Source: an uncultured archaeon
GTDB lineage: Archaea > Asgardarchaeota > Thorarchaeia > Thorarchaeales > Thorarchaeaceae
Reading direction: 5' to 3'
Length of the DNA: 13,125 nt
Assembly (NCBI GenBank): GCA_964648855.1
Contig: CAZYLT010000033.1
Span: 1-13,125 of the forward strand
Position numbers and translations under genes: made by a program
Notes under the pieces: model-generated
The model's input: only the letters and a program-made list of their open reading frames with translations
The model's database searches: none
What the model was told of the DNA's origin: nothing
Shown: positions 1 through 3,954 of the stretch, one piece after another
Layout of the letters: every line of letters begins with the position of its first letter
How positions within the stretch are numbered: the first letter of the stretch is position 1

Positions 1-24
1 TCCACCGACTCAACCACCTGGAGT

Positions 25-1260
25 GTGCTGGGAGGTGATTTATTTTACAGGGCCCTTAGCTCCACATTTAGAGACCTTAAAGAACATAGAAAGGCGGTTC
101 TCGAAGCCATTGATAGGTGTGATATATACCCTAGAGGGATGGAGGCATTTGGGGCGCAACCAAAAACCCCTGTTAAGGCAAGCCTTGAAGAAGTAAGAAA
201 GGCGGATATTTTTGTAGGAATCTATGCTCATAGATATGGCTCTATACCTGAGAGATATGAAAGTTCCTTGATTGAATTAGAACTCAACTGTGCTGAAGAG
301 AACGGAATACCCATTCTAGCGTTCATTGTTGATTCATCACACACTTGGCCTAGCGAACTCAAAGACACTGGAGAAAAGAAGAAGAAACTACAGGAGCTGA
401 AAAAGAGAATCGATGCAAGTTATACGCGAGATAATTTCACAACTCCAGATGACCTTGCCATAAAGGTAATTTCTTCCATTGGAAGGCACCTCAAAGAATT
501 ACTTGATAAAACAAGAAAGTCACATCAACCTTCAACTCTCAAGCCAATAGTGGATATATCCAAGGCTTTCAAAAGAAAAGATGACTTATTCCAACCATAC
601 ATGAATGAGTATTTCCGCCCAGATTTCTTGATGCATTTTCAGAAATCACGTAAAGAGAAGTTTTTTGTTATGAAACGACTACACAAAGAGTTTCTTGATA
701 CATTTCAAAAGTCATGTTCGATGGACGTGAAACCCAGCATCGATATCATTCCAGATGATATGTTGCCGTCGGTTTTGGCTCGGTGTATAGGTATTATGGG
801 TACAACGTATGTCCGCGCCACAGACAACATAAAAGACAACGAGATATCTATTACATTTACGCTCAACACAGATTCTCTGAGAAACAGCCGAGAGGAAAAC
901 GAATCATTTCTTGCATGGATGGACGAATTTACAGAATATCAGAGGAAGAACTATGATGATGCATTATTAAATTTGCACGAAAAAATGCAAAACATGGAAC
1001 GAAATGATATATTCGAGAAACTGCGGGCTTTATCTCTTAATCCGATTGAAGGCCTTGCCAGGATAAACAAGCTTCTTGAGCTGAAGATAAAATTTATTGA
1101 TTTGAGAAAAGATGCGTATCGGGAGTATCCAGCGCTCTGGTGGGCATTCATTTCTAGTATGATGATAGACTCCATTCCGGAAACAAAAGACCCTCCAAGC
1201 GACTTTTTGAAATGGGTGATAAGGCAAATGAAGAAACAATCAGAACTAGGAGTCCTGTGA
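25..1260 (+). CDS. DUF4062 (TIR/NDT-like fold) domain protein with an uncharacterised C-terminal region; start codon uncertain
   Basis: The N-terminus SSTFRDLKEHRKAVLEAI...GMEAFGA...SLEEVRKADIFVGIYAHRYGSIP...SLIELELNCAEENGIPILAF matches the DUF4062 pattern. The frame is open back to base 1, and a strong SD (GGAGGTGA, 31-38) lies just inside the called ORF. Confidence 0.8.
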   Translation: MLGGDLFYRALSSTFRDLKEHRKAVLEAIDRCDIYPRGMEAFGAQPKTPVKASLEEVRKADIFVGIYAHRYGSIPERYESSLIELELNCAEENGIPILAFIVDSSHTWPSELKDTGEKKKKLQELKKRIDASYTRDNFTTPDDLAIKVISSIGRHLKELLDKTRKSHQPSTLKPIVDISKAFKRKDDLFQPYMNEYFRPDFLMHFQKSRKEKFFVMKRLHKEFLDTFQKSCSMDVKPSIDIIPDDMLPSVLARCIGIMGTTYVRATDNIKDNEISITFTLNTDSLRNSREENESFLAWMDEFTEYQRKNYDDALLNLHEKMQNMERNDIFEKLRALSLNPIEGLARINKLLELKIKFIDLRKDAYREYPALWWAFISSMMIDSIPETKDPPSDFLKWVIRQMKKQSELGVL

Positions 1261-3416: not shown

Positions 3417-3600
3417 CAGCTATACACCGCGTTGTATAATGCTCAATCTATGCTTCGCAGACTAGCACTATTATAAAGAAATTTCCATACGGAAAAGAAA
3501 ATTGAAAAGTGCAACCTAGCATTGCCTTACGTAATGCTTTTATCTGACCCATTGCGGATACGATATACGTTCCAATTACACCAGTTGAGGTAGTTTAAAA
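3417..3600. promoter_or_regulatory. Divergent promoter region for etfB and the small membrane protein
   Basis: AT-rich intergenic region. TTTATAATA on the minus strand (about 3469-3477), TTTTAT on the plus strand (about 3538-3543), and SD-like GAGGT at 3587-3591 before the ATG at 3601. Confidence 0.45.
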
Positions 3601-3954
3601 ATGGGCAAAGAAAAGATACTTGGTGCACTGATACTTATCTTCGCACTCTTAGTGATGATTTACTATACATGGGGACTGGTCTTGCTTCAGAACCCCTGGT
3701 TTGGTCTAGGCATGCAGAATTGGGTCACGGATACATTTGACCCAGGCATTCTTCGCGATATATTCCTGCCAGACCCGATGTTTCTGATTATCCTTCCAGT
3801 TTGGTTAGCAGCAGTCTTGATATGCGTAATCGGCATGTGGATAGGTTGGACAATGCTGACAACTCCGGCTCCTGAACCCCTCGAAGACTTCGATTTCGAT
3901 GAAGAGAGCATCGAAGAAGAAGAAACCGAGGAAGCAGTCGAAGACGTCGACTGA
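3601..3954 (+). CDS. Two-TM membrane protein with an acidic tail; DPM2-like (dolichol-phosphate-mannose synthase regulatory subunit-like)
   Basis: TM1 is ILGALILIFALLVMIYYTWGLVLL, the loop ends in FLP, and TM2 is IILPVWLAAVLICVIGMWIGWTMLTT, followed by PAPEP and a D/E-rich tail. An SD is present. The CDS itself is certain; the DPM2 call rests on recalled motif similarity. Confidence 0.65.
   Translation: MGKEKILGALILIFALLVMIYYTWGLVLLQNPWFGLGMQNWVTDTFDPGILRDIFLPDPMFLIILPVWLAAVLICVIGMWIGWTMLTTPAPEPLEDFDFDEESIEEEETEEAVEDVD

What the first reader, a model, noticed from the sequence alone, without database searches (positions are those of the whole stretch)
3601..3954. Archaeal DPM2-like protein: candidate eukaryotic signature protein
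Seen: a two-TM layout, (E)K-x-LG...IYYTW...FLP...IILP...IGMWIGWTMLTT. Established (recalled): human DPM2, the regulatory subunit of dolichol-phosphate-mannose synthase and of GPI-GlcNAc transferase, is an ~84-aa two-TM protein reading roughly DQVVG...FTYYTAW...YFLP...AIP...VGLFISYVMLKT. The anchors G, YYT, FLP, P, G-x-aromatic-I and ML-x-T occur in the same order, with a longer loop here. The C-terminal WIGWT..TTP.P.P plus acidic tail also resembles a small, poorly annotated archaeal membrane family. Inference: this protein may link that family to eukaryotic DPM2, suggesting an archaeal origin of the multi-subunit DPM complex.
Basis: partly seen in the sequence, partly recalled or inferred. 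Interest (0 to 1): 0.75.

Follow-up and report, generated by a model that had tools for sequence, protein, structure and literature searches.

The report
Archaeal DPM2/PIG-P-like membrane hairpin protein
This is a real, strongly conserved 117-residue two-helix membrane protein of a Thorarchaeote, related to DPM2 and PIG-P (small helper subunits of sugar-lipid enzymes in the eukaryotic ER); that kinship is already published, and its partner enzyme in archaea is still unknown.

Summary
The ORF at 3601-3954 (+) is a genuine gene. dN/dS is about 0.06 against the same-genus ortholog. Relatives were found in 276 of 301 sampled genomes of its phylum, usually as one copy. AlphaFold gives a two-helix hairpin with pLDDT 87.

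Pfam DPM2 matches at E=6.3e-6 (26.8 bits, cut-off 27.3), and PIG-P is the second hit. In a wider alignment of 89 archaeal relatives, only three Pfam families match at E<=1e-5: PIG-P (22 members), DPM2 (10) and one holin family (3). In six-frame scans of whole genomes, family members are the top DPM2 and PIG-P hits, 10-19 bits above noise.

An Asgard origin of DPM2 and PIGP is already in Kay et al., Nature 2025, and an earlier report of this scan reached the same verdict on another genome.

New here:
- near-universal presence in Asgard genomes, and presence in Bathyarchaeia and other TACK-group MAGs;
- an invariant cytosolic motif, WIGWTM-x-TTPAPEPLEDFDFDEE;
- conserved synteny with S19, archaeal GlmM and a GlmS-like gene;
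- a DPM1-like synthase without membrane helices in this genome, which does not co-vary with the family;
- no DPM3, PIG-A or PIG-C;
- two paralogs in Heimdallarchaeota, one scoring best as DPM2 and one as PIG-P.

The origin of a multi-subunit DPM complex is not shown. Interest is modest.

The parts
3601..3954 (+). Gene for the 117-aa DPM2/PIG-P-like two-helix membrane protein (P0001)
   Evidence: ORF and translation. Pfam DPM2 E=6.3e-6 and PIG-P E=0.046. About 150 close homologues, nearly all Thorarchaeota. dN/dS about 0.06.
3587..3591 (+). GAGGT, a Shine-Dalgarno-like motif 9 nt upstream of the ATG
   Evidence: Read directly from the sequence; not tested.
3604..3684 (+). N-terminal KEK..G motif and transmembrane helix 1 (residues 2-28), ending in the invariant YYTW
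   Evidence: AF2 helix 2-28. G8 is conserved in 89/89 and Y22 in 80/89 of the wide family; Y21 and W24 are invariant in Thorarchaeota.
3685..3774 (+). Extracytoplasmic loop (residues 29-58) with two short helices; variable in length and sequence except P57
   Evidence: AF2 helices 35-46 and 50-55. Alignment gaps and variability. Net acidic charge read from the sequence. This loop splits the DPM2 match into two stretches.
3775..3861 (+). Transmembrane helix 2 (residues 59-87), with LP at its start and WIGWTM at its end
   Evidence: AF2 helix 59-87. Best DPM2 stretch is residues 55-87 against profile positions 39-71 of 75. P66, W80, I81, G82, T84 and M85 are invariant in Thorarchaeota.
3838..3906 (+). 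Most conserved segment, residues 80-102: WIGWTMLTTPAPEPLEDFDFDEE, at the cytoplasmic membrane interface, plus a docking-type tail
   Evidence: Invariant or nearly so in 38 Thorarchaeota sequences. In the wide family: W-I-G-[WY]-T-M-x-T-T-P-[PA]-P-x-P-[IL]-E. Model pLDDT is 78 falling to 60, extended conformation.
3907..3951 (+). Variable acidic low-complexity C-terminal tail (residues 103-117)
   Evidence: The alignment shows variable length and composition.
7458..8903 (-). Archaeal phosphoglucosamine mutase (GlmM). It is the conserved syntenic neighbour of the family gene, separated from it here by a histidine kinase
   Evidence: NCBIfam TIGR03990 Arch_GlmM, 562 bits, cut-off 439. Within 3 genes of the family gene in 15 of 39 Asgard loci; directly adjacent and convergent in most Thorarchaeota loci.
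9580..9990 (+). Ribosomal protein S19, the most widely conserved syntenic neighbour
   Evidence: Pfam Ribosomal_S19 E=7e-29. In 24 of 39 Asgard loci.

Best explanation
The gene encodes a small helical-hairpin protein of the cytoplasmic membrane. Its N-terminus (KEK) and its acidic C-tail face the cytoplasm, and the loop faces outside.

It belongs to the DPM2/PIG-P superfamily and represents the archaeal form that predates the eukaryotic DPM2/PIG-P duplication.

By analogy with its eukaryotic relatives, it most likely has no catalytic activity. It would act as an accessory subunit: it packs in the membrane against an enzyme that loads a sugar onto a membrane lipid carrier, and stabilises or activates that enzyme at the cytoplasmic face. 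The contact would come from the invariant end of helix 2 and the juxtamembrane stretch (WIGWTM-x-TTPxPxP-L-E-D-F), with the acidic tail as a docking site for a soluble catalytic domain.

Shown: gene reality, topology-type fold, superfamily kinship at HMM level, near-universality in Asgard genomes, and the conserved motif.

Inferred: the accessory role, the use of the tail, and the partner.

My split for the partner:
- a GT2 dolichol-phosphate-hexose synthase of the DPM1 type, about 0.3;
- a UDP-GlcNAc-using lipid glycosyltransferase (PIG-P-like role), about 0.2;
- another membrane enzyme, about 0.1.
For: Pfam matches.
- DPM2 E=6.3e-6 and PIG-P second.
- Family-wide hits: 34/38 and 22/38 among Thorarchaeota; 63/89 and 69/89 in the wide family, with best E of 1.7e-8 for DPM2 and 2.3e-10 for PIG-P.
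- At E<=1e-5 only PIG-P (22), DPM2 (10) and a holin family (3) remain out of 24,736 models.

Natural-background control. Six-frame scans of whole genomes with both models put family members on top (33, 26 and 32 bits). All other hairpins score 15 bits or less, and none of 14 control genomes passes the cut-off.

Motif level. The published PIG-P consensus for helix 2, YWALAIPIYLL..., matches the archaeal ..YWALAIPVL.. and ..IILPVWL...

Literature. The PF07297 tree has Asgard as sister and a DPM2/PIGP duplication.

Core-gene status. 276 of 301 genomes, 87 of 90 high-quality ones, and 65 of 70 genera. dN/dS is 0.06.

Fold. Two-helix hairpin, pLDDT 87.

Partner candidates and context.
- This genome has a 238-aa GT2 without membrane helices whose best solved relative is Pyrococcus Dol-P-Man synthase (5MLZ, E=3.8e-48, catalytic part only). 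A GT87 GT-C enzyme follows it.
- Sugar-activation genes are syntenic across Asgard families: glmM, then a GlmS-like SIS gene, then the family gene, on one strand with gaps of 12-20 and about 80 bp, in two families. GlmM is convergent in Thorarchaeota. A PMI-like cupin and a ribokinase are neighbours in a third family.
Against: - The kinship rests on two hydrophobic helices and a short linker. Wong et al. 2010 (PMC2912341) showed that the Pfam PIG-P model gives false positives driven by transmembrane helices.
- A holin family also matches, with best E of 2.4e-6.
- No eukaryotic protein appeared in the profile search of 1.84 billion representatives (top 150 of 197 read), in PDB searches, in Foldseek or in the ESM Atlas.
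- The Kay et al. result uses the same Pfam model, so it is not independent.
- No DPM3, PIG-A or PIG-C was found in this genome.
- The DPM1-like enzyme is patchy, 37 of 121 genomes at E<=1e-30, so it does not co-vary with the family.
- Genomes with a self-anchored type-III synthase also keep the gene.
- TACK-group loci show no sugar-gene context.
- The synteny also includes the S19 ribosomal operon and may simply be inherited gene order.
Confidence: 0.6

Rival explanations
1. PIG-P-like reading. The protein assists a UDP-GlcNAc-dependent transferase that puts GlcNAc on a membrane lipid, either a phosphoinositol lipid or dolichol phosphate. It would not assist a mannose enzyme.
For: - The wide family scores better on PIG-P than on DPM2: 22 against 10 members at E<=1e-5, best E 2.3e-10.
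- The match to PIG-P runs past helix 2 into the conserved juxtamembrane stretch: residues 10-103 against profile positions 9-85.
- The conserved neighbours are hexosamine genes. These are an archaeal GlmM equivalog (562-568 bits) and a two-SIS protein closest to the GlmS isomerase half, in an operon-like row in two Asgard families.
Against: - No PIG-A-specific domain and no PIG-C/GPI2 were found in this genome or in five Heimdallarchaeota genomes. The PIG-C search rang in no control genome, so that result is weak.
- For this Thorarchaeota protein, DPM2 is the better match.
- Archaeal mutases of this family are often also phosphomannomutases (my own knowledge), so the neighbour does not separate GlcNAc from mannose.
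Confidence: 0.2
2. Chance resemblance. This is an independent archaeal two-helix membrane family whose similarity to DPM2/PIG-P comes from helix composition and spacing. Its function would then be unrelated to glycosylation.
For: - Published warning about exactly this Pfam model.
- A holin family also matches at 2.4e-6.
- No direct sequence, structure or embedding link to any eukaryotic protein.
- This protein is 0.5 bit under the DPM2 cut-off.
Against: - The two related eukaryotic families are the top two hits across a diverse family.
- The family stands 10-19 bits above every other hairpin in six whole genomes.
- Non-hydrophobic anchors are shared: G at the start of helix 1, an aromatic pair at its end, YWALAIP at the start of helix 2, and G..M..T at its end.
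- Heimdallarchaeota members pass the cut-off over the full model length.
Confidence: 0.15
3. Membrane adaptor for something else. The invariant proline-rich and acidic tail would recruit a non-glycosylation partner, for example a ribosome- or translocon-associated factor, to the membrane.
For: - The most widespread neighbour is the S19-L22-S3 ribosomal operon (24 of 39 loci).
- The tail is more conserved than the helices.
- A few members carry C-terminal helix-hairpin-helix domains.
Against: - No protein-level similarity to any known translocon or ribosome-receptor family.
- The synteny with the ribosomal operon is not seen in TACK-group loci.
Confidence: 0.05

Closest known systems
DPM2 (Pfam PF07297), regulatory subunit of eukaryotic type-II Dol-P-Man synthase and of GPI-GlcNAc transferase
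   Same: Small two-helix hairpin. HMM match E=6.3e-6, covering both helices. Shares G at the start of helix 1, the YY.W end of helix 1, P at the start of helix 2 and an aromatic-I-x-aromatic-x-M end of helix 2. A published tree places Asgard sequences as sister.
   Different: 117 aa against about 84 aa. The loop is about 10 residues longer and splits the match. There is an invariant TTPAPEPLEDFDFDEE tail where, as I recall, DPM2 has a short basic end. The score is 0.5 bit under the curated cut-off. No DPM3 is present. The family is also found in TACK-group archaea.
PIG-P / Gpi19 (Pfam PF08510), essential subunit of GPI-GlcNAc transferase
   Same: Two helices with a similar start of helix 2 (consensus YWALAIPIYLL). 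The match extends into the juxtamembrane stretch. The wide archaeal family scores best on this model (2.3e-10).
   Different: This Thorarchaeota protein scores only 14 bits (cut-off 39.3). It lacks the longer cytosolic region of PIG-P. No PIG-A or PIG-C was found in the genome.
Membrane domain of type-III Dol-P-Man synthase (Pyrococcus furiosus, PDB 5MLZ)
   Same: Gandini et al. 2017 proposed that its two helix pairs correspond topologically to DPM2 and DPM3, and saw some similarity to DPM2.
   Different: Tested here. The membrane domain of an Asgard type-III orthologue (5MLZ E=2.5e-103) shows no profile match to the family (hhalign probability 0.15%). The two coexist in the same genomes.
DPM3, membrane tether of DPM1
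   Same: A functional analogy only. It is a small membrane protein whose cytosolic tail holds the soluble catalytic subunit at the membrane, which is what I propose for the conserved tail here.
   Different: No sequence relation. Weak DPM3 hits in 15 of 89 members are at noise level (best 0.0039). No DPM3 gene in this genome.

Membership tests
DPM2 (PF07297) | Score at or above the curated Pfam cut-off (27.3 bits) on the DPM2 model | tested here: inconclusive
   26.8 bits, E=6.3e-6, in two stretches because of the longer loop. The 96%-identical same-genus protein carries a precomputed PF07297.18 hit. Heimdallarchaeota homologues score 33 bits over model positions 2-71 of 75.
DPM2 (PF07297) | Small protein made of two transmembrane helices joined by a short loop | tested here: met
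   AF2 helices 2-28 and 59-87, pLDDT 87. The protein is longer (117 aa), with a 30-residue loop and an extra acidic tail.
DPM2 (PF07297) | Works with DPM3 and DPM1: stabilises DPM3 and raises Dol-P-Man synthase activity | not testable with these tools
   No DPM3 found. A DPM1-like GT2 without membrane helices is present, but it is patchy across the phylum.
DPM2 (PF07297) | Groups with eukaryotic DPM2 in a tree | not tested
   No eukaryotic sequences could be fetched. Kay et al. place Asgard sequences outside the DPM2+PIGP pair, that is, before the duplication.
PIG-P (PF08510) | Score at or above the curated Pfam cut-off (39.3 bits) | tested here: not met
   14 bits, E=0.046 for this protein. 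The best member of the wide family reaches E=2.3e-10.
PIG-P (PF08510) | Part of a GPI-GlcNAc transferase with PIG-A and PIG-C | tested here: not met
   No PIGA domain and no GPI2 match in the 94.6%-complete genome. The GPI2 search rang in no control genome, so absence is weakly shown.
DPM2/PIG-P superfamily (pre-duplication archaeal branch) | Both eukaryotic models are the best and specific hits, family-wide and genome-wide | tested here: met
   family-wide; top hits in six-frame genome scans, 10-19 bits above noise.
Archaeal WIGWTM-TTPPP family (unnamed) | [KR]-[DE]-[KQ]-x2-G, helix 1 with Y, helix 2 starting ..P and ending W-I-G-[WY]-T-M-x-T-T-P-[PA]-P-x-P-[IL]-E, then an acidic tail | tested here: met
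   All positions are present in P0001. Frequencies in 89 sequences are. 197 cluster representatives at E<=1e-3.

The most novel reading that the evidence does not exclude
The archaeal protein is the single ancestral adaptor from which both DPM2 and PIG-P descend. Its invariant cytosolic tail (TTPxPxP-LEDFDF) would be the docking site that brings soluble sugar-lipid glycosyltransferases to the membrane, doing alone the jobs that eukaryotes later divided among DPM2, DPM3 and PIG-P.

A sharper form: the split had already begun in Heimdallarchaeota. Their two paralogs score as DPM2-like and PIG-P-like respectively, which would place the duplication before eukaryotes rather than on the eukaryotic stem.
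Probability: 0.15. Interest if true: 0.6.

Novelty: new member of a known kind. Interest (0 to 1): 0.35.

Why it matters
DPM2 and PIG-P are tiny and poorly understood, yet they are medically relevant: congenital disorders of glycosylation and GPI deficiencies map to them. A single-copy archaeal ancestor, near-universal in the closest relatives of eukaryotes, offers a simpler system for asking what these hairpins do, and a marker for how the ER glycosylation machinery was assembled.

The kinship itself is already published. The value here lies in the details: distribution, the conserved tail, synteny, the lack of co-variation with a DPM1-like enzyme, and the Heimdallarchaeota paralogs. It does not lie in the discovery of the link.

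Tried and rejected
1. Detached-module idea: that the family is the separated membrane hairpin of type-III Dol-P-Man synthase. hhalign of the family profile against the membrane domain of an Asgard 5MLZ orthologue gave probability 0.15%. Rejected at sequence level.

2. Obligate partner of the DPM1-like GT2 without membrane helices. That enzyme was found at E<=1e-30 in only 37 of 121 Asgard genomes, and in 8 of 17 of the same family. Weaker short GT2s exist elsewhere. One Thorarchaeota copy sits at a contig end, so assembly gaps blur the picture. There is no co-variation.

3. GPI-GlcNAc-transferase core. No PIG-A or PIG-C in this genome or in five Heimdallarchaeota genomes.

4. DPM3. Noise only. 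The overlapping weak DPM2 and DPM3 hits on contig C1 lie in an Mrp/Mnh-type antiporter subunit.

5. Solved structures. phmmer and three profiles against PDB sequences found no DPM2 or PIG-P. Foldseek against the PDB found nothing below E=5.

6. Fetching eukaryotic DPM2/PIG-P for a profile-profile test or a joint tree.
- The representative search listed only archaeal-looking proteins.
- A word-indexed search with a Heimdallarchaeota member gave 5 close relatives.
- The ESM Atlas gave only archaeal clusters.

7. Fused forms as a clue to the partner. The 'longer' search found none, which is weak evidence.

8. Neighbourhoods in TACK-group archaea: no recurrent sugar or glycosyltransferase gene.

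Neighbourhoods were taken with the genome search and the fetch from genomes instead.

10. Holin reading. Rejected because this is a single-copy core gene in housekeeping synteny.

Full report
**What is there**

The window is from a Thorarchaeote; the closest homologues are nearly all named Candidatus Thorarchaeota. It stands alone between two flanking transcription units. Upstream lies a divergent ETF beta/alpha pair, and downstream a convergent PAS/GAF histidine kinase. A GAGGT lies 9 nt before the ATG.

The gene is real.
- Against the same-genus orthologue dN is 0.024 and dS 0.423. Against more distant Thorarchaeota, synonymous sites are saturated while dN stays at 0.15-0.28.
- AlphaFold2 on an 89-sequence alignment gives a hairpin: helix 2-28, a loop with two short helices, helix 59-87, then an extended tail. 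Mean pLDDT is 87.
- The lysine-rich N-terminus and the net acidic loop fit a topology with both ends in the cytoplasm. This is an inference from the positive-inside rule.

**Conservation**

In 38 Thorarchaeota orthologues, Y21, W24, P57, L62, P66, W80-G82, T84, M85 and the whole stretch T87-F97 are invariant. The segment WIGWTM-x-TTPAPEPLEDFDFDEE is therefore more conserved than the helices.

A profile search of 1.84 billion cluster representatives found 197 relatives at E<=1e-3. Those I read share this plan: M-x-[KR]-[DE]-[KQ]-x2-G, two helices, W-I-G-[WY]-T-M-x-T-T-P-[PA]-P-x-P-[IL]-E, and an acidic tail.

Distribution:
- With the wide profile, 276 of 301 sampled genomes of the phylum have the gene. 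That is 87 of 90 high-quality genomes and 65 of 70 genera, nearly always one copy.
- It also occurs in Bathyarchaeia, Methanomethylicota, Nitrososphaerota and Thermoprotei MAGs.
- It is thus a core gene of Asgard archaea and widespread in the TACK group, not an Asgard-only trait.

**Is it DPM2-like?**

Pfam DPM2 matches this protein at E=6.3e-6 (26.8 bits, cut-off 27.3), and PIG-P is second at E=0.046.
- At E<=1, 34 of 38 Thorarchaeota orthologues hit DPM2 and 22 of 38 hit PIG-P.
- In the wide family, 63 of 89 hit DPM2 and 69 of 89 hit PIG-P, with best E-values of 1.7e-8 and 2.3e-10.
- At E<=1e-5, only PIG-P (22 members), DPM2 (10) and one two-helix holin family (3) remain out of 24,736 models.

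Two-helix similarity is risky evidence. Wong et al. 2010 used the Pfam PIG-P model itself as an example of false positives driven by transmembrane helices. I therefore used whole genomes as a natural background.
- In six-frame scans of this genome and five Heimdallarchaeota genomes, family members are the top hits of both models (33, 26 and 32 bits).
- Every other hairpin scores 15 bits or less.
- No control genome reaches either cut-off.

The published PIG-P consensus for helix 2, YWALAIPIYLL, is matched almost letter for letter by Heimdallarchaeota members (YWALAIPVL).

I rate true homology at about 0.8. PDB, Foldseek and ESM Atlas searches gave no eukaryotic link.

**Already known?**

Yes, in outline.
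- Kay et al., Nature 2025, list the PF07297 tree with Asgard as the sister lineage. DPM2 and PIGP appear as a pre-LECA duplication dated 2.06-2.88 Ga. This rests on the same Pfam model, so it is not independent evidence.
- Automatic annotation already names a Thorarchaeota cluster after DPM2.
- I found no paper that studies the archaeal proteins themselves.
- This scan met the same family before on other genomes. One follow-up report (e1-5421984) reached the same verdict.

**Partner and mechanism**

This genome encodes a 238-residue GT2 without membrane helices. Its best solved relative is the catalytic part of Pyrococcus Dol-P-Man synthase (5MLZ, E=3.8e-48). It is followed by a GT87-type GT-C enzyme. 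That is the DPM1-like situation in which eukaryotes need DPM3 and DPM2.

The simple picture does not hold up, however.
- No DPM3 was found.
- Close homologues of this GT2 were found in only 37 of 121 Asgard genomes. Other lineages have only more distant short GT2s.
- Genomes with a complete, self-anchored type-III synthase (5MLZ E=2.5e-103) keep the family gene as well.
- The membrane domain of that type-III enzyme is not related to the family (hhalign probability 0.15%).
- PIG-A and PIG-C were not found.

**Gene context**

I compared 39 loci from about 20 Asgard families.
- The family gene lies near ribosomal protein S19 and the L22-S3 operon in 24 loci.
- It lies within three genes of an archaeal GlmM equivalog in 15 loci.
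- In two small-genome families, glmM, a two-SIS protein closest to the GlmS isomerase half, and the family gene follow one another on one strand, with gaps of 12-20 and about 80 bp.
- In Thorarchaeota, GlmM is the convergent neighbour. In this window a histidine kinase has come between them.
- In another large family, the neighbours are a PMI-like cupin and a ribokinase.
- TACK-group loci show none of this.

The context thus hints at sugar activation, hexosamine more than mannose. It may equally be inherited gene order beside a ribosomal operon.

**Best reading**

The protein is a non-catalytic accessory hairpin for a membrane enzyme that loads sugars onto a lipid carrier. The invariant cytoplasmic interface motif and tail would be its working surface. 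The identity of the partner is open.

**Side result**

Heimdallarchaeota carry two paralogs.
- One scores best on DPM2 (33 bits, over the cut-off). The other scores best on PIG-P (27-32 bits).
- In an archaea-only tree, both fall in one Heimdallarchaeota clade (SH-aLRT 92), and the PIG-P-like copies are monophyletic (96).
- The PIG-P-like copy is followed directly by a PlsC-type acyltransferase in two loci.
- Whether this mirrors the eukaryotic split needs a joint tree with eukaryotic sequences.

**Verdict**

The DPM2-like reading is supported as membership of the DPM2/PIG-P superfamily, in its pre-duplication form, though the link is not new. The claim about the origin of a multi-subunit DPM complex is not supported.

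Noticed in passing
window 11101-13107 (runs to the window end): CRISPR array. At least 27 copies of a 37-nt repeat (CTTTCAATCCTCACAATATGAGATTAGCTTCTGCAAG) with spacers of about 38 nt. The small ORFs listed there are artefacts of the repeats.
   Followed up: partly
L079-L088 (Heimdallarchaeota genomes G015, G036, G054, G148, G169): Two paralogs of the family per genome. One scores best on Pfam DPM2 (over the cut-off) and the other on PIG-P. Both sit in one Heimdallarchaeota clade in an archaea-only tree. No PIG-A or PIG-C in these genomes.
   Followed up: partly
L089:6322-7050 and L094:6257-7000: The PIG-P-like Heimdallarchaeota paralog is followed on the same strand by a PlsC-type acyltransferase (PF01553, E about 1e-22 to 1e-24), either after a 3-nt gap or overlapping. 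This hints at a link to ester-lipid metabolism.
   Followed up: no
G000:C49:222-938 and 942-2204 (L077): A Dol-P-Man-synthase-like GT2 without membrane helices (5MLZ E=3.8e-48), directly followed by a GT87-family GT-C glycosyltransferase, on a short contig of the window's genome.
   Followed up: partly
P0183, P0213, P0219, P0254 (family members from the representative search): Some members carry a C-terminal extension that looks like helix-hairpin-helix motifs after the acidic tail. This was read by eye and not scanned.
   Followed up: no
alignment A2 against PDB 6BMS/6BMM (DHHC20 palmitoyltransferase): A weak profile match (E 0.011-0.024) of the whole hairpin plus the W..W..TPPxP stretch to helices 1-2 of DHHC20. 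Probably chance.
   Followed up: no
window 1-1260 and 10086-11012: A DUF4062-domain protein, cut off at the window start, and a 308-aa acidic protein with no Pfam match just upstream of the CRISPR array.
   Followed up: no
window 9580-9990: In Thorarchaeota the S19 gene is detached from the L22-S3 operon, which it precedes in other Asgard families. Here it follows a small TPR protein.
   Followed up: no
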